A stretch of DNA of 32,000 nucleotides, taken from contig JASBSB010000007.1 in NCBI GenBank assembly GCA_030149205.1, positions 390,001-422,000 of the forward strand, in the 5' to 3' direction. The position numbers and the translations under genes were made by a program. This DNA comes from Candidatus Heimdallarchaeota archaeon (GTDB taxonomy: Archaea; Asgardarchaeota; Heimdallarchaeia; Heimdallarchaeales; Kariarchaeaceae). The number at the start of each line of letters is the position of its first letter. The stretch's first letter is position 1. This document shows, in pieces, positions 2,020 through 32,000 of the stretch. The notes under the pieces were generated by a model. The model was not told the origin of the DNA. It saw only the letters and a program-made list of their open reading frames with translations, and made no database searches.

Positions 2020-3108
2020 ATGAGTTTTACTATGAATCAAATAGCACAAGAGGTTCAGCATCAGACTCATACTAGGCTGTCAGAGGTTTCCACAGAGGAT
2101 CTAATAGTCGACATCCATGGTTTGAAAAAGTACTATGGGGATGTAAAGGCTGTTGACGGAATAGATTTGCAAATACCGCGAGGAACAATCTTTGGATTTT
2201 TAGGACCAAACGGTGCAGGAAAAACCACCACAATTAGTGCACTGATAACACTGGCTAAACCAACCGCAGGAAGTGGTACGGTGGTGGGTTTTGACCTTCA
2301 TGATCGAAATAACATCAAGAAACATATTGGTGCTGTGTTTCAGGAGCAAACACTGGATGAAGAGCTTACTGGACTACAAAACCTTAAATTTCATGCAGAG
2401 ATGTATTTTCTGCCAAAACCTGTTGCAGAACAAAGAATTGAAGATTTAACAAAGATGGTCGGTATTCACGACCGACTGAGCGATAAGGTTATGAATTATA
2501 GTGGTGGAATGAGACGTCGTCTAGAAATTGCTCGGGGATTAATGACTGATCCTGAGATTCTGTTTCTTGATGAACCAACCATTGGCCTCGATCCCCAGTC
2601 TCGCGCTAACATTCTACAAAAGATCAAAGAGATGAATGAAGAGAAGGGATTAACGATCTTTATCACCACGCATGATATGGAAGAGGCTGAAAGTCTCTGT
2701 GATCAGGTCTGTATCATTGATCAGGGCAAGATAATTGTGCAGGGGACTGTAGATGAGCTAAAGAATTCACTTGGTAATGATTTTGTCATTATAAACTTTA
2801 ACTCACCAGATGAGATGAATCTTGCAATGAACCTTCTCAATGATCTTCCAGAGGTAAACGAGGTAAAATCATCCGGTTCAGTTTTACACATCGGAACCAA
2901 GAGTGGGTCAACAGCAGTAGTGAAGATACTCAACACCTTAAAGGAAAAGGTTGAGGTTAATTCTGTAGAGATCAAAAAACCCACGTTGAATGATGTCTTC
3001 CTGTATTACACTGGAAAAGAGCTTCGTGATGATGTTGCAGATTTATCAGACAGACTGAAGATGGTGGGAAGAAAAAAGGGAAGAAGAGGTATGATGAGGA
3101 GGCGATAA
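2020..3108 (+). CDS. ABC exporter ATP-binding subunit (DrrA/NodI-like)
   Basis: Walker A GPNGAGKTT, signature YSGGMRRR, Walker B LFLDEPT, H-loop TTHDM, plus a C-terminal extension. Confidence 0.97.
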   Translation: MSFTMNQIAQEVQHQTHTRLSEVSTEDLIVDIHGLKKYYGDVKAVDGIDLQIPRGTIFGFLGPNGAGKTTTISALITLAKPTAGSGTVVGFDLHDRNNIKKHIGAVFQEQTLDEELTGLQNLKFHAEMYFLPKPVAEQRIEDLTKMVGIHDRLSDKVMNYSGGMRRRLEIARGLMTDPEILFLDEPTIGLDPQSRANILQKIKEMNEEKGLTIFITTHDMEEAESLCDQVCIIDQGKIIVQGTVDELKNSLGNDFVIINFNSPDEMNLAMNLLNDLPEVNEVKSSGSVLHIGTKSGSTAVVKILNTLKEKVEVNSVEIKKPTLNDVFLYYTGKELRDDVADLSDRLKMVGRKKGRRGMMRRR

Positions 3109-3109
3109 G

Positions 3110-3976
3110 ATGTACGCAAGCACTTCAAAATCACAAGACTCTTACAATGGCTTTGGGATCTTTACCTTTATCCGATCCATCTGGACAGTTTACAAGCGGC
3201 AAAATGCCAGGTTGATAAATTCCAAGTCTCAGCTCATCTCAATTATGATTATGCCTCTACTCTGGTTGGTCATCATAGGACAAAGCTTCAATAACCTGCT
3301 AGGCAGCTCAAACCCTCTCTTCTCAGGAAATGTAAACTACATAACCTATATGACACCTGGAATTTTTGTGATGATAACCATGTTCTCCAGTCTCTTTGGG
3401 ATCATTTCATTGTTTTATGACAGAGATTCAGGCTACCTGAAGAACTATCTGCTTGCTCCCATCAGCAACACAGCAATCATATTTGGTTATGCAATGGGTA
3501 TCTACACCAGGGTGTTTATTCAGGTGTTGCTTATACTTGTAATCGCGATTGCCATAGGTGCAAACATTCCTATAACAGTGGGTTCACTCACAGCTATAAT
3601 ATTGTTCCCCGTTGTGGTCTCCTTCTTTCTTTCGGGACTAGCCATAACTCTTGCCTCCCGAGCTTCAAATGTGGAGACCTTCCAAGCAATTATCATGCCA
3701 ATAAGCATGCCATTGATGTTTCTCTCTCCAATTTTATACCCGATAAAGGCCCTACCAGACTATCTCCAATGGATTGCACAGATCAACCCCCTCTCAATGG
3801 GTGTTGAGGGATTGAGATTTGTTCTTTTAGGAAAGATCTACACTGATGGTGCAATAATTGACATTGCACAATTCAATGACCATCTTGCAATCTTTAACTT
3901 TGCCCTCCTCTTTCTGGTTGGCATAGTGTTCCTGATCATGGGGAGCAAGACATTCTTGAATTCTCTTTACAAATAA
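3110..3976 (+). CDS. ABC-2 type permease (DrrB-like)
   Basis: About 6 TM helices, YMTPGI, FYDRDSGYLKNYLLAP and INPLSMGVEGLR motifs. 1 nt after the ATPase stop. Confidence 0.95.
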   Translation: MYASTSKSQDSYNGFGIFTFIRSIWTVYKRQNARLINSKSQLISIMIMPLLWLVIIGQSFNNLLGSSNPLFSGNVNYITYMTPGIFVMITMFSSLFGIISLFYDRDSGYLKNYLLAPISNTAIIFGYAMGIYTRVFIQVLLILVIAIAIGANIPITVGSLTAIILFPVVVSFFLSGLAITLASRASNVETFQAIIMPISMPLMFLSPILYPIKALPDYLQWIAQINPLSMGVEGLRFVLLGKIYTDGAIIDIAQFNDHLAIFNFALLFLVGIVFLIMGSKTFLNSLYK

Positions 3977-27232: not shown

Positions 27233-27784
27233 TTACTTAGAAAGGATTTTAGAAACTACATAGCGTAAATCTAACAACAAACCGATCAAAAGTACCAGGT
27301 TGAAAGCAAATGTAAAGATCAACCACGTAAATCCACTGACGTCATTGATGTAAAGTATAAAACCAGCGATCATGGTCAGAATCACGTAGATCATATACAG
27401 GAATATCTTAGGGACATTCCTATCTGCAACTAAAATATGATCGGCCAGCTCGCCTAGGAGGGCAGGATTACTGTCTTGAACAAAATATTTCCCATTTGCT
27501 GTCTTCTCAACCAATGAGAAAGTATAGAGCCTTGAAAGATGGTAAGCAACAAGCGATGGTGTGCTATATCCCAACTCTTTTTGTAGCTCACTGACCCCAT
27601 GTAATTTTCCAGGACTGCTTGCCAAGAAGTGATAGATCTCCAAGGTTTTTCCCTGAATCTTTTCACTGTAATCAATCTCTGGCTCTGGGTACAAATCCTT
27701 GTCTGTGAGTAAATCTTTTACTAAAGGTTTGGCTAAACCATCTGATGAAAAAGCCTCATCATTCTTTTTTTGATTACCAGCCAT
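27233..27784 (-). CDS. Membrane-tethered wHTH regulator, copy B
   Basis: GKTLEIYHFL…GVSELQKEL..STPSLVAYHL…GKYFV; shares NPxLLGELADHIxVADxxVPK with copy A; two TM helices. Confidence 0.85.
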   Translation of the reverse strand: MAGNQKKNDEAFSSDGLAKPLVKDLLTDKDLYPEPEIDYSEKIQGKTLEIYHFLASSPGKLHGVSELQKELGYSTPSLVAYHLSRLYTFSLVEKTANGKYFVQDSNPALLGELADHILVADRNVPKIFLYMIYVILTMIAGFILYINDVSGFTWLIFTFAFNLVLLIGLLLDLRYVVSKILSK

Positions 27785-27785
27785 C

Positions 27786-29522
27786 TTAAACCCTCCTCAC
27801 AGTCTCAATGTAAAGTCCAGTTGATACTTTAGACTTCAGGGTTAAGACACCCATGTACACGATTTCAAGCTTGTCTCCCATCGAATTAAACGTGATAAGT
27901 TTAGCAAAAGAGACCCCTGTAATATCTCTTTTTATTCCTGTATCGTCACAAGAATATGAAGTTCCTCTTTCAGGACCAAGGACGGGAGAAATTGCTGATA
28001 GGTTGTACGTGTTGTTGGTCACAGATCCAGTAACTTTAACTCTGGTTAGAAATTCACCAATTGAACTACCACAATTACCTATTGAGGGTAAATATGTGTT
28101 ATTTACCTTGTAAAGTTTACTATAAACCATTAATTCAATACGATTGGGATCGGTATTTAACACATCAACAAACGTCCTTTCACTCTTCATATAGTTCGGA
28201 GAATACGCCGACCCCTGAACCAAAATCGAAGAGTTAAGTCTTGGGAAGGAGACTGAACTGTTTGCAAACGAGAGGTAATTTCCGTTGGTTGGATGAGTGG
28301 GGTCAAACAAGGAGAGCTGTAATCCAGACTTACTGATTTTGTTCAAAAATATATTGTCATTGTAACTCTGACTTCGGTCCCAATTTGAAACATTTTGATA
28401 AAACCCGTTTAAGTTTGCTGAGTTGAAAAGAACTCCAAAAAAACTTCCAACCTCAAATATTTGCAGTGTTTCAAGAGCTCCACCTGTGACAAATGGATAT
28501 GGTAGCAACTGCCAGTAATAGCTTTTGTTTAAAGTTGGGTCAATCATAACATAATTTGCCCTGTTTAACCCAGAATAATTTCCTTCAAGATTATTTACAA
28601 TTGTCCCTGATCCAGTTAGGTGTATTCTGCCCTTTGAATCGATCAAATTGACTTGGGAGTTAGTCATATTTATCACCCCAAAATTATCAACTGTTTTGGG
28701 AGTCCTTAAAATTTCTCTGAAGTCTATTTGTAGGTGTGTATTGTTTAACAAGCCAAACTTGACAGGAGATCCTTGAGACAATTTGTCAGGATTCATCAAC
28801 TTCTGATAAATCTTTGATGAAATCGTGTAATAGGTTTTTTGTTCTCTAAAGTTTGAAATTGGACCGGTTTGATTTATCTCATTAAATAACAAAAGAAATT
28901 TTTGTTTTCCATAGTAATCTAGGCTGGCAACACTCATATTCCCTGTTGGAAGCCTGTAAACAAGAGATTTGAGATCAATAGAAACGCTTGGTTCGACTTT
29001 TATGGGGAGATAGAATGTTCTCTTAATATACTCCGCAGGAAAACCACGATAAGTGAAGCTGGAGTTATATCCCTGGGAGAAGGTAATGTACTGAGACTCT
29101 TTTATTGTAAGAAGTATAAGCGACTTGTTGATTCCCATTAGAGAAAAAGCATAGAATATTGTGTGATTCACCTCTGATGCGGTATTGTCTATACCCATAA
29201 TAGGTTGTAAATAATCAAATAAAGGCAGTTGTGTAATCTTCTTAGTAAAGGTGTCATGCTCTATAAGAATATATGAGTATTTCTGGGTGTTGTTTACCCC
29301 CGATTTTGAATTGAATTCAAATCCAACCCAATAATTTTTGTCGTTGACCGTTATAGCCTTAGAAACTGGATAGAAGTTCGTGTTGGCCACAGGTTGATAG
29401 CTAGGGTTGAAATTATCTGCGACATAAATCACAGTACTGGTTATTACAATGGAAAGAACTACTAAAGAGAGTGCCTTTCCAGTTGGAAATCTCATCAATG
29501 ATATAACCTTCCAAGATTGCAT
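27786..29522 (-). CDS. Single-pass membrane protein with a large extracellular domain, copy B
   Basis: Start reassigned to MQSWK at 29522 by alignment with copy A. Shared blocks FPTG, YPVS, NYWV, LIDSKGxIHxTG, IDP…YWQL, NGFYxNxSxW, SFANxxxSFP. Confidence 0.8.
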   Translation of the reverse strand: MQSWKVISLMRFPTGKALSLVVLSIVITSTVIYVADNFNPSYQPVANTNFYPVSKAITVNDKNYWVGFEFNSKSGVNNTQKYSYILIEHDTFTKKITQLPLFDYLQPIMGIDNTASEVNHTIFYAFSLMGINKSLILLTIKESQYITFSQGYNSSFTYRGFPAEYIKRTFYLPIKVEPSVSIDLKSLVYRLPTGNMSVASLDYYGKQKFLLLFNEINQTGPISNFREQKTYYTISSKIYQKLMNPDKLSQGSPVKFGLLNNTHLQIDFREILRTPKTVDNFGVINMTNSQVNLIDSKGRIHLTGSGTIVNNLEGNYSGLNRANYVMIDPTLNKSYYWQLLPYPFVTGGALETLQIFEVGSFFGVLFNSANLNGFYQNVSNWDRSQSYNDNIFLNKISKSGLQLSLFDPTHPTNGNYLSFANSSVSFPRLNSSILVQGSAYSPNYMKSERTFVDVLNTDPNRIELMVYSKLYKVNNTYLPSIGNCGSSIGEFLTRVKVTGSVTNNTYNLSAISPVLGPERGTSYSCDDTGIKRDITGVSFAKLITFNSMGDKLEIVYMGVLTLKSKVSTGLYIETVRRV

Positions 29523-29560
29523 AATTAAATTATACTGATAAAATTTAAGAAAAAATGGGT

Positions 29561-29577
29561 TTGAAAGGGGTTGAAAG
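29561..29577 (-). promoter_or_regulatory. Direct repeat CTTTCAA-N3-CTTTCAA upstream of module B
   Basis: ttgaaag at 29561-29567 and 29571-29577 (10-bp period). The first copy begins 39 nt from the ATG at 29522. Confidence 0.5.
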
Positions 29578-29647: not shown

Positions 29648-30484
29648 CTATATCTTATTCCCACACACTGTACAATACAAATCACCTGTGATTTGAGCAC
29701 CACAGGAGGGACAAAATCTTTCAACCCTATCTTGAATTATTATGGGAATCTGAAGTGTGTAATCCTTTTTTAAAGCCCTGTCAACCACGAACTTGAAAAA
29801 ATAATCTATCTGAAAGTTTATTCCCCTAATAGTTTTTATTCTCTTTGGTAAAAGAAATGGTTTTTGGAACTCAAGGTCAACACTTTGAGTGGAAATTCTT
29901 TCTGTGTTCATATAACCTTCTCCCCTCGCTTGTCCTAAAATAAACCTAAACAAATCCAGCCTTAACGCTCTGAACCCTTCGAAGAGGTTCAAAATAAATC
30001 TGTATTTTACAAGGTCTCCTGATGAGTAAACATTTTGTGGCAATTCAAAAGTGACAAACTTAGTCTCAGTTTTAATGGGGGTAATTTTGTTGTTATAGAG
30101 GTTCCTGACATCTGTTGGGTAGTAATACCGTTGATCTGGTTTCCATTTTTGGTCTAATTCCACCTCGATACCATGAAAAACATTCACATTCTCCGAATGA
30201 TAACTTCCAGCGACATCTAAAGGGATAATCACAGAAATTTTTCCTCTGTAAATATTTTGGCCTTCAACTGGTTGAATTGTAATAGAATTGGCATAAAGGT
30301 CTATCTCTTCCATTGCAGTGTATGAGTGTTTTCCAGACCTAATCTTAAATCTCACAGTTTCCCTACCATACAGGTTAATTCGAACCTTTCGTACTTCATT
30401 ATTTCTGTCTTGGATGGCTACCTCTGCGTTCATCGTTTCCCCAGGGAGATAATACTCCTTATCGAAAGTCACTTGTATGTTCAT
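29648..30484 (-). CDS. Arrestin-fold (arrestin N and C lobes) protein with C-terminal Zn ribbon, paralog 1
   Basis: FDKEYYLPGET…VRINLYGRETV (arrestin-N/SpoOM-like), second lobe LPQNVYSSGD…IDY…LQIPIII, and CPSCG…YCTVCG. Confidence 0.78.
   Translation of the reverse strand: MNIQVTFDKEYYLPGETMNAEVAIQDRNNEVRKVRINLYGRETVRFKIRSGKHSYTAMEEIDLYANSITIQPVEGQNIYRGKISVIIPLDVAGSYHSENVNVFHGIEVELDQKWKPDQRYYYPTDVRNLYNNKITPIKTETKFVTFELPQNVYSSGDLVKYRFILNLFEGFRALRLDLFRFILGQARGEGYMNTERISTQSVDLEFQKPFLLPKRIKTIRGINFQIDYFFKFVVDRALKKDYTLQIPIIIQDRVERFCPSCGAQITGDLYCTVCGNKI
29682..29718. repeat. 37-bp exact repeat (Zn-ribbon codons), also at 30882-30918
   Basis: tcacctgtgatttgagcaccacaggagggacaaaatc is identical at both sites, 1200 bp apart. 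Confidence 0.95.
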
Positions 30485-30507
30485 CTAAATTAATTTTATG
30501 TATTCGC

Positions 30508-30528
30508 ATATAAATTTGTAGGAAATAT
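30508..30528 (-). promoter_or_regulatory. Core promoter (TATA TTTATAT plus upstream element) of arrestin paralog 1
   Basis: 20 of 21 nt identical to 31710-31730. TATA lies 24-30 nt upstream of the ATG. Confidence 0.65.
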
Positions 30529-30847
30529 CTTGGTCTATTGCTTGATTATTTGTAGATGTTTTGATGACATCATTATATAATTTTGATATTATAATTTTGA
30601 TATCAAGGGTAAAGCATCTGATAAAAATATTCATTGTTCTTGTCATCACAATGGATAGAATTAATGAAGAAAGAGTCTCCCTCTCTGGAAAATTTTTGAC
30701 TGATTTAAGATATGAAGAGAGCTTAATTAAACCAGTTAAAATCTCGGTAAAAATGAGGTTGAATGAGCTTAAAGGCTAAAAAAAATACCTTAAATTATAA
30801 ATTAGTACGATAAACCTCAATCTTTTAATTGAATATAATATCTACTA

Positions 30848-31687
30848 TTAAAGCTTATTTCCACACTCTATACAATAAAAGTCACCTGTGATTTGAGCAC
30901 CACAGGAGGGACAAAATCCTTCATCCTTCTCTTCAATTACTATAGGAATGTCTAGTCTGTAATCTCTTTTGAAAGCTCGGTCAACAATAAATCTTAGAAA
31001 ATAGGAAACTTGGAAATTTTTCCCCTTAATGCTCTTCGCCCCCTGTGGTAACAAATAAGGCTCGTTAATCTCCTGATTTATTATCTTAGTAGATATCCGT
31101 TTACTTTTTCTGTATGCATGCCCATGTGCGTTCCCTAGAGTTGATTGATGTAATTCCAACCTCAGTCCCCTGAATCCCTCATACAGGTTCATAAAATACC
31201 TGTATTTAATCAAAGCCCCTGATGAGTAAATATTTTGTGGCAAGTCAAACGTGACAAATTTGGTTTCTTTTTTTATGGGTTTGACTTCTTGGTTATAGGT
31301 TCTTTTTACTATGGTTGGGTAAGAAAACCTCTGATCCAGTTTCCATTTCTTGTCCAATTCAATCTCAATCCCATGAAAAACCTTTGCTATATCAGATTGA
31401 TAACTCTCTACAACATCAATTGGGGTGGTTATAGAGATTTTTCCCCTATAGTTGACCAGGTCTTGAACAGGTTGAATAACTACTTTATTCGAGTAGAAGT
31501 ACACCTCCTCGCTTGCGGTACTTTGATATTCTCCAGATTGATATTTAAAGGTCACAGTTTCTCTTCCAAACAGCTTAATTTGAATCTTTCTGACACTAGA
31601 ATTGACATTGCCTTGCATGGATACATCTGCATTAATGGTTTCCCCAGGGAAATAATACTCTTTATCAAAGAGCACCTTAACATCCAT
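30848..31687 (-). CDS. Arrestin-fold protein with C-terminal Zn ribbon, paralog 2
   Basis: Colinear paralog of 29648-30484. Start at MDVK (31687) fits the promoter spacing; the track uses 31693. Confidence 0.78.
   Translation of the reverse strand: MDVKVLFDKEYYFPGETINADVSMQGNVNSSVRKIQIKLFGRETVTFKYQSGEYQSTASEEVYFYSNKVVIQPVQDLVNYRGKISITTPIDVVESYQSDIAKVFHGIEIELDKKWKLDQRFSYPTIVKRTYNQEVKPIKKETKFVTFDLPQNIYSSGALIKYRYFMNLYEGFRGLRLELHQSTLGNAHGHAYRKSKRISTKIINQEINEPYLLPQGAKSIKGKNFQVSYFLRFIVDRAFKRDYRLDIPIVIEEKDEGFCPSCGAQITGDFYCIECGNKL
30882..30918. repeat. 37-bp exact repeat, copy 2
   Basis: Identical to 29682-29718. Confidence 0.95.
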
Positions 31688-31709
31688 GATCATAATTTAT
31701 CATAGAAGT

Positions 31710-31730
31710 ATATAAAATTGTAGGAAATAT
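31710..31730 (-). promoter_or_regulatory. Core promoter of arrestin paralog 2
   Basis: Near-identical to 30508-30528, at the same spacing from the start. Confidence 0.65.
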
Positions 31731-31791: not shown

Positions 31792-32000
31792 TTAGTAATT
31801 ATAGCCAAAGAGATTCAAGTTGATCAGCAGATAAAGGTTCAAGATATTCACAGCTAAAAATATTAAAAAGTACAGTTTTTCAACTCTACTGGTCTTCAAT
31901 GTTTTTCTCGCAAGGATCAGATATAGAACCAACCCCACTAATAGTATTGTAGTAAAAAGTGGGATGGTGAGGATAACTCCTACCATGAGAGGAATCCCTT
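31792..32000 (-). CDS. Membrane protein, probably 5'-truncated by the window edge
   Basis: Two hydrophobic helices. The frame stays open upstream of the ATG at 31986 (…GIPLMVG…) to the window end. Confidence 0.5.
   Translation of the reverse strand, partial: GIPLMVGVILTIPLFTTILLVGLVLYLILARKTLKTSRVEKLYFLIFLAVNILNLYLLINLNLFGYNY

What the first reader, a model, noticed from the sequence alone, without database searches (positions are those of the whole stretch)
29648..31687. Tandem two-lobed arrestin-fold proteins ending in a Zn ribbon instead of a PPxY tail
Seen: both genes show arrestin-N and arrestin-C style strand patterns followed by CPSCG-x6-YC-x2-CG. Established: the arrestin clan includes alpha/beta-arrestins, Vps26 and bacterial SpoOM; alpha-arrestins recruit NEDD4 ligases through PPxY tails. 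Inference: prokaryotic arrestin adaptors with a Zn-ribbon module, lying directly upstream of signalling module B on the same strand. They are candidates for binding membrane-protein tails and are relevant to the origin of eukaryotic cargo adaptors.
Basis: partly seen in the sequence, partly recalled or inferred. Interest (0 to 1): 0.7.

Follow-up and report, generated by a model that had tools for sequence, protein, structure and literature searches.

The report
Tandem Asgard arrestins with zinc ribbons
Two neighbouring genes of a Heimdall-group Asgard archaeon really do encode arrestin-shaped adaptor proteins with a small zinc-binding tail, but this family was already catalogued in these archaea in 2023, and I found no support for a tie to the neighbouring genes or a special place at the root of eukaryotic arrestins.

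Summary
Observation confirmed, with one slip: the motif is CPSCG-x7-YC-x2-CG, not x6. Two intact minus-strand paralogues (278/279 aa, 57% identical, dN/dS about 0.2) each carry a copy of the same promoter-like element. Pfam Arrestin_N/C pass cut-off. The AlphaFold model (pLDDT 95) matches Vps26 (Z 18.5) and alpha-arrestin ARRD-6 (Z 17.5) over both lobes, Spo0M over one lobe only.

The host is a Kariarchaeaceae (Heimdallarchaeia) archaeon. The pair sits in a Heimdall arrestin clade (100/99) in which 19 of 26 rows end in the ribbon. Two ribbon-bearing members are already listed as Arrestin_C signature proteins in Eme et al. 2023. The same ribbon occurs on 20 ORFs of this genome, so 'instead of PPxY' is not shown.

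The link to module B is unsupported: module B appears to have its own promoter and no homologue locus has it nearby. Trees place eukaryotic alpha-arrestins nearer Thorarchaeia, but sisterhood with this clade is not rejected (AU p 0.19). Most likely these are monocistronic cytoplasmic peptide-binding adaptors with unknown partners. The scan noted related arrestin-ribbon genes on other DNA before.

The parts
29648..30484 (-). Arrestin paralogue 1, 278 aa: N-lobe about aa 1-128, C-lobe about 129-253, Zn ribbon 258-275
   Evidence: ORF; Pfam; AF2 model; fold searches
30848..31687 (-). Arrestin paralogue 2, 279 aa from ATG 31687 (in-frame ATG also at 31693), same architecture
   Evidence: ORF; 57% identity to paralogue 1; Pfam; dN about 0.29, dS about 1.37; not folded separately
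29660..29713 (-). Zn ribbon of paralogue 1, CxxCG-x7-YCxxCG (C258, C261, C271, C274)
   Evidence: Sequence; weak Pfam Zn_Ribbon_1 hit (E 0.008, below cut-off); zinc binding inferred from the 4-Cys pattern
30860..30913 (-). Zn ribbon of paralogue 2, same pattern; the tail region is 76% identical between paralogues against about 56% for the lobes
   Evidence: Sequence
30508..30528 (-). Promoter-like element ATATTTCCTACAA followed by a TTTATA box about 25-30 nt before the ATG of paralogue 1 (leaderless-type spacing)
   Evidence: the 13-mer occurs exactly twice in the 3.3-Mb genome, 44 and 43 nt upstream of the two ATGs; promoter function inferred
31710..31730 (-). The same promoter-like element upstream of paralogue 2, duplicated along with the gene
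27233..29577 (-). Neighbouring module B (membrane-anchored surface protein from ATG about 29522, then a wHTH-TM regulator), with its own TTCAA repeats and AT-rich box upstream. A neighbour, not shown to belong to the arrestin unit
   Evidence: paralogy with module A; three regulator copies in the genome; only this one is beside arrestins

Best explanation
The two genes are a local, old tandem duplication of a Kariarchaeaceae/Heimdall-clade arrestin, each copied with its own promoter and kept under purifying selection. Shown: two-lobed arrestin fold, no transmembrane or signal segment, C-terminal 4-Cys ribbon, clade membership, repeated upstream element. Inferred from how alpha-arrestins, beta-arrestins and Vps26 work: each is a soluble cytoplasmic adaptor whose beta-sandwich edges or concave faces bind short, possibly acidic peptides such as cytoplasmic tails of membrane proteins. 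The basic C-lobe of this pair (net +7 and +10) fits that but is not a family trait. The flexibly tethered ribbon is a generic zinc_ribbon_2-type interaction module that this lineage appends to many membrane-associated proteins; it would supply a second docking site rather than a specific PPxY equivalent. Cargo and downstream partner are unknown and are not encoded reliably next door.
For: Fold and family: (profile hits ARRDC3 E 8e-23, ARRD-6, TXNIP, Vps26C). Duplication and selection. Clade: 100/99; 99/99. Ribbon in 19 of 26 rows of the clade, 0 of 17 Thorarchaeia rows, and a few other prokaryotic rows; the same pattern on 20 ORFs of the genome. Neighbourhood not conserved. Alpha-arrestin basic regions bind acidic patches of cargo (PMC9105457).
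Against: No binding or expression data exist here; a shared fold shows no function. The basic C-lobe is not conserved (clade median net charge 0). Some arrestin-fold proteins bind soluble partners (TXNIP with thioredoxin, 4ll1). The family was not found in most Heimdallarchaeia searched (16 of 83 genomes), so it is probably not a core trafficking part.
Confidence: 0.55

Rival explanations
1. The ribbon functionally replaces PPxY: it binds ubiquitin or an E2/RING E3 in trans, making these alpha-arrestin-like ubiquitylation adaptors.
For: The genome encodes ubiquitin next to an E1-like ORF and an E2. The ribbon spacing resembles NZF/RanBP2 fingers and a few homologues show CxxC-x3-N-x6-CxxC. Atabeyarchaeia arrestins carry a ribbon followed by a RING-like Cys/His cluster (P0059, L049).
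Against: The NZF ubiquitin-binding TF pair (own knowledge) reads GA here and is not conserved in the clade. The same ribbon is on 20 ORFs of the genome. Ubiquitin is in 77 of 83 class genomes but the arrestin in 16 of 83, so distribution gives no link. No ubiquitin-system gene was recognised beside any homologue examined.
Confidence: 0.12
2. They are scaffolds or regulators for soluble proteins, possibly with the Cys4 ribbon acting as a redox or zinc sensor, unrelated to membrane cargo.
For: TXNIP, an arrestin-fold protein, binds soluble thioredoxin (4ll1). Two-lobed arrestins also occur in bacteria and non-Asgard archaea (Atlas clusters). Patchy distribution.
Against: Most characterised arrestin-clan members act at membranes. 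Two clade members carry a C-terminal hydrophobic helix (P0006; RS678 homologue in L012), which points to a membrane site of action.
Confidence: 0.17
3. They are Vps26-like cargo-recognition subunits of a retromer-like coat.
For: The top structural match is Vps26 (Z 18.5). Like Vps26 they are short and have no PPxY tail. Retromer-subunit homologues are reported in Asgard archaea (PMC10307638).
Against: No Pfam Vps26 hit for either copy. Vps26 and ARRD-6 are tied within 1 Z. No Vps35 match in the genome (uninformative control). No retromer genes recognised nearby.
Confidence: 0.09
4. They are dedicated adaptors of the adjacent module B, or of the upstream membrane-anchored beta-lactamase-fold protein, in one signalling unit.
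For: Same strand and short gaps (24-126 nt to module B depending on its start; about 105 nt from the upstream gene).
Against: Separate promoter-like elements. Module A and the third regulator copy have no arrestin beside them. No shared neighbour in nine relative loci or four metagenome/genome loci.
Confidence: 0.05
5. They are recently transferred bacterial Spo0M derivatives.
For: A faint Spo0M Pfam hit for paralogue 2 (15.2 bits). The AU test does not reject grouping the pair with Spo0M on the N-lobe alone (p 0.096).
Against: The hit is below the cut-off of 23. Spo0M 5cl2 aligns to one lobe only (109 residues). The pair lies in a Heimdall clade at 99/99 and Spo0M forms its own 100/100 clade. 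Gene GC is 36.8% against 35.5% for the genome. Homologues occur in 8 of 11 other genomes of the family.
Confidence: 0.02

Closest known systems
Asgard Arrestin_C/N eukaryotic signature proteins (Eme et al. 2023, PMC10307638, supplementary file 5; earlier Zaremba-Niedzwiedzka 2017 as cited in 10.1101/2021.04.02.438162)
   Same: Same family. The listed entries Kariarchaeaceae FT_008 (matches the G005 homologue in L011) and LC_3 HeimC3_37580 (P0019) are in the same clade as this pair and also end in the 4-Cys ribbon.
   Different: This pair is a long-branched tandem duplicate only 22-31% identical to those entries and other relatives. The ribbon is not discussed in any paper I found.
Eukaryotic alpha-arrestins / ARTs (ARRDC3, TXNIP, C. 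elegans ARRD-6)
   Same: Two-lobed arrestin fold; best profile hits (E 8e-23 to 7e-20); Z 17.5 to ARRD-6.
   Different: No PPxY tail; no WW or HECT partner found in the genome (uninformative controls); Zn ribbon instead of a disordered tail; not grouped together in ML trees.
Vps26A/B/C (retromer, retriever)
   Same: Compact two-lobe fold of similar length, no PPxY; top VIA match (Z 18.5).
   Different: No Pfam Vps26 hit; no Vps35 found; extra ribbon; 12-18% identity.
Spo0M (B. subtilis 5cl2; PF07070)
   Same: One arrestin-type sandwich; same clan (PMC2515105).
   Different: Only one lobe aligns; Pfam score below cut-off; separate clade.
Thorarchaeia and Atabeyarchaeia arrestins
   Same: Two lobes, often in tandem arrays. 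The Atabeyarchaeia forms also carry a ribbon.
   Different: Thorarchaeia forms lack the ribbon and end in acidic-aromatic tails; some Atabeyarchaeia forms add a RING-like domain; different clades.

Membership tests
Arrestin clan (CL0135) | Arrestin beta-sandwich fold, two lobes | tested here: met
   AF2 pLDDT 94.9; Foldseek E 5e-14 to ARRD-6; VIA Z 18.5 over 244 residues
Arrestin clan (CL0135) | Pfam Arrestin_N or Arrestin_C above gathering score | tested here: met
   both copies
Asgard (Kariarchaeaceae) arrestin signature proteins of Eme 2023 | Same clade as catalogued entries, in a Heimdallarchaeia host | tested here: met
   Trees (98; 100/99); entries FT_008, RS678 and LC_3; congener S012_26_esom listed under Kariarchaeales in one table
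Alpha-arrestins / ARTs | [PL]PxY motifs in a C-terminal tail | tested here: not met
   Regex on copy 1; translation of copy 2
Alpha-arrestins / ARTs | NEDD4-family WW-HECT ligase partner in the host | tested here: inconclusive
   No WW or HECT match in G000 (93.5% complete), but no control genome rang either
Alpha-arrestins / ARTs | Phylogenetic grouping with eukaryotic alpha-arrestins | tested here: inconclusive
   ML tree separates them; AU p 0.194 for holding them together
Alpha-arrestins / ARTs | Binds membrane-protein tails and drives their ubiquitylation | not testable with these tools
   Needs experiment
Vps26 | Pfam Vps26 (PF03643) match | tested here: not met
   No hit at E up to 1 for either copy
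Vps26 | Vps35 partner in the host | tested here: inconclusive
   No PF03635 match, control uninformative
Vps26 | Phylogenetic grouping with Vps26 | not tested
   No Vps26 sequence was available by reference for the tree
Spo0M | PF07070 above cut-off | tested here: not met
   15.2 bits against 23 for copy 2, no hit for copy 1
Spo0M | Single arrestin lobe plus a different C-terminal domain | tested here: not met
   The model has two arrestin lobes; 5cl2 aligns over 109 residues only
Spo0M | Nests within the Spo0M clade | tested here: inconclusive
   ML tree places the pair outside (99/99 and 100/100), but AU p 0.096; seven proteobacterial Spo0M rows only
Beta/visual arrestins | Long C-tail with clathrin and AP2 boxes | tested here: not met
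   The proteins end 3 residues after the ribbon
Beta/visual arrestins | Polar core / phosphate sensor | not tested
NZF ubiquitin-binding zinc finger | TF residues after the first CxxC (own knowledge) | tested here: not met
   GA in both copies; variable across 19 clade ribbons

The most novel reading that the evidence does not exclude
The Heimdall arrestin-ribbon clade is a ubiquitin-pathway cargo adaptor: the arrestin body binds membrane-protein tails and the ribbon recruits ubiquitin machinery in trans. It would then be a working archaeal precursor of, or sister to, alpha-arrestins and Vps26 from before NEDD4/PPxY existed.
Probability: 0.08. Interest if true: 0.8.

Novelty: new member of a known kind. 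Interest (0 to 1): 0.3.

Why it matters
I found no biochemical study of an Asgard arrestin in the papers searched. These are small, soluble, confidently modelled proteins from Heimdallarchaeia, the class closest to eukaryotes, in a host with ubiquitin, an E1-like enzyme and E2. That makes them convenient test objects for whether archaeal arrestins bind membrane-protein tails. The survey adds that Asgard arrestins form several clades with different tails: a ribbon (Heimdall clade), acidic-aromatic (Thorarchaeia) and ribbon plus RING (Atabeyarchaeia). The finding itself is another member of a family already listed as a signature protein.

Tried and rejected
Word-index homologue search found only the query itself; phmmer against PDB with the single protein found nothing useful. 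Profiles were needed.

Co-folding paralogue 1 with the host's ubiquitin gave 'no answer' (score 0.00). It is not used as evidence either way. Co-folding with neighbouring membrane-protein tails was not run: only one job is allowed and no conserved linkage singles out a partner.

NCBIfam gave no family. The two lobes show no BLAST similarity to each other. A basic C-lobe as a family trait was rejected. A genome-wide regulon for the shared upstream 13-mer was rejected: only two exact copies.

The taxonomy of most metagenomic 'ProkDR' and 'ProkUnk' tree rows could not be established, so no transfer direction is claimed. Paper searches for arrestin + archaea + zinc ribbon and for Asgard + arrestin-like found nothing relevant; the library lacks most subscription papers.

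Full report
Observation. The interval holds two intact minus-strand ORFs, 29648-30484 (278 aa) and 30848-31687 (279 aa; an in-frame ATG also lies at 31693). They are 57% identical over their whole length. Synonymous sites are near saturation and non-synonymous change is low (dS about 1.37, dN about 0.29, simple counting), so this is an old duplication with both copies under purifying selection. A profile search finds no third arrestin of this family in the genome. Neither has a PPxY motif.

Fold. Both copies pass the Pfam cut-offs for Arrestin_N and Arrestin_C. An 84-row alignment gave an AlphaFold2 model of copy 1 with mean pLDDT 94.9: two beta-sandwiches and a short ribbon. Foldseek's top hits are ARRD-6, Vps26A/B/C and TXNIP, then beta-arrestins. 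The exhaustive aligner gives Vps26 Z 18.5 (rmsd 3.1, 244 residues) and ARRD-6 Z 17.5 (270 residues), which count as tied. Spo0M gives Z 10.6 over one lobe only, and unrelated folds stay at or below 9.9.

Host. A same-genus genome is Heimdallarchaeota S012_26_esom, listed under Kariarchaeales in one table of Eme et al. 2023. Two same-family homologues match that paper's Kariarchaeaceae entries FT_008 and RS678. The host is therefore a Kariarchaeaceae member of Heimdallarchaeia. It encodes ubiquitin beside an E1-like ORF, and an E2 elsewhere. No WW, HECT or Vps35 match was found, but those searches had no positive control.

Distribution. The family profile hits 16 of 83 Heimdallarchaeia genomes, including 8 of 11 others in the family. 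Arrestin_N hits 94 of 400 Asgard genomes, and tandem pairs or triplets are common in Thorarchaeia, so tandem arrangement is ordinary. The ribbon is present in 19 of 26 rows of the Heimdall clade (at least one row without it is cut by a contig end), 0 of 17 Thorarchaeia rows, 0 of 5 rows of a second Hodarchaeales type, 4 of 6 other Asgard rows and 5 of 39 unassigned prokaryotic rows. Two ribbon-bearing members, LC_3 HeimC3_37580 and Kariarchaeaceae FT_008, are already in the Arrestin_C signature-protein list of Eme et al. 2023. I found no paper that comments on the ribbon.

The ribbon. The same CxxCG-x7-11-[FYW]CxxCG pattern occurs on 20 ORFs of this genome, 9 C-terminal and 8 N-terminal; several look like membrane proteins from their N-terminal sequence. 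It lacks the TF pair of ubiquitin-binding NZF fingers (own knowledge). It is best read as a mobile interaction module. Because PPxY works through WW-HECT ligases that are not known from archaea (own knowledge), its absence is expected and says nothing about replacement.

Context. Each gene has the element ATATTTCCTACAA followed by a TTTATA box, 44 and 43 nt above its ATG. The 13-mer occurs only at these two places in 3.3 Mb, so the promoter was duplicated with the gene and each copy is probably monocistronic. Module B has its own TTCAA repeats and AT-rich box between the arrestin stop and its likely start near 29522 (noted earlier in e1-5423698). Nine relative loci share no neighbour with this window apart from generic ABC ATPases and a methyltransferase. 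Four further loci also differ. The module's regulator has three copies in this genome, and in the two congeners with an arrestin it lies on another contig. The adjacency looks incidental.

Phylogeny. In a 62-row IQ-TREE analysis (LG+C20 PMSF, 274 columns, unrooted) the pair falls in a Heimdall clade at 100/99. Eukaryotic alpha-arrestins (100/98) lie with Thorarchaeia and a few others in an unstarred group (92/91); FastTree on 111 rows agrees. Forcing the Heimdall clade together with eukaryotes costs 12 log-likelihood units and is not rejected (AU p 0.194). On the N-lobe alone, seven Spo0M rows form their own long-branched clade away from the pair; forcing them together gives p 0.096. Limits: identities near 20%, several long branches, eukaryotes sampled only from an amoebozoan, stramenopile, fish and unnamed set, no Vps26 or beta-arrestin rows, and homologues gathered with a profile seeded on this clade. 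The result is no support for a special tie to eukaryotes, no formal exclusion, and no sign of recent transfer from Spo0M.

Mechanism. Shown: fold, architecture, selection, repeated upstream element. Inferred (about 0.55): soluble adaptors that bind short peptides, plausibly cytoplasmic tails of membrane proteins, on the arrestin body, with the ribbon as a second docking site. The pair's C-lobes are basic (+7, +10), as in alpha-arrestins that bind acidic cargo patches (PMC9105457), but the clade median is 0. Two relatives carry a C-terminal hydrophobic helix, which mildly favours a membrane site. Rivals: soluble-protein scaffold (0.17), ubiquitin-recruiting ribbon (0.12), Vps26-like coat subunit (0.09), module B partner (0.05), Spo0M transfer (0.02).

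Verdict. A real, well-supported pair of Asgard arrestins, and a new member of a family already catalogued. The ribbon tail appears undescribed in text but is a common appendage. Interest 0.3.

Noticed in passing
L041-L070 (Thorarchaeia arrestin loci): Thorarchaeia arrestins lack the ribbon and mostly end in acidic-aromatic tails (such as DDFSW, SIFDF, FAFGFY), reminiscent of coat-adaptor-binding motifs.
   Followed up: no
L049 (G086:C1:2027776-2031255), P0059, P0041: Atabeyarchaeia carry tandem arrestin + ribbon + RING-like fusions; already reported by the scan.
   Followed up: partly
L111:1459-2682 and 2739-3161 (G000:C2): Ubiquitin (GG followed by a 3-residue extension) directly upstream of an E1-like gene, with a small multi-pass membrane ORF convergent on it. 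Ubiquitin homologues are in 77 of 83 class genomes.
   Followed up: partly
L083:7393-8984 (LC_3): The LC_3 arrestin-ribbon gene is divergently adjacent to a Ras/Roc small GTPase; single case.
   Followed up: no
L012:1438-2486 (G010, RS678) and P0006: The RS678 homologue is split into two ORFs and ends in a hydrophobic helix; P0006 has a ribbon followed by a hydrophobic helix. Possible membrane-anchored arrestins.
   Followed up: no
L081:8001-9245 (P0026), P0025: Clade members of 414-445 aa with a 125-160 residue N-terminal extension and no ribbon; P0026 lies upstream of Nop and fibrillarin genes.
   Followed up: no
L095-L100 (Hodarchaeales family f5): A second, very divergent ribbon-less arrestin type in 6 of 22 genomes of this family.
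   Followed up: partly
G000 whole genome: Twenty ORFs share the same 4-Cys ribbon, including a 2133-aa protein (C7:443467-449865) and a 333-aa SPFH-like protein (C8:55615-56613).
   Followed up: no
window 31792-32000 and L005:6793-8742: The upstream 649-aa protein has a class C beta-lactamase-like fold far below cut-off, lacks the SxxK motif and has C-terminal hydrophobic helices; already noted by the scan.
   Followed up: partly
tree: Spo0M attaches on a very long branch among Thorarchaeia arrestins (98/94); probably long-branch attraction.
   Followed up: no
window 14397-15655: Another tandem pair of similar small ORFs (153 and 154 aa) on the minus strand, so local tandem duplication recurs in this region.
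   Followed up: no
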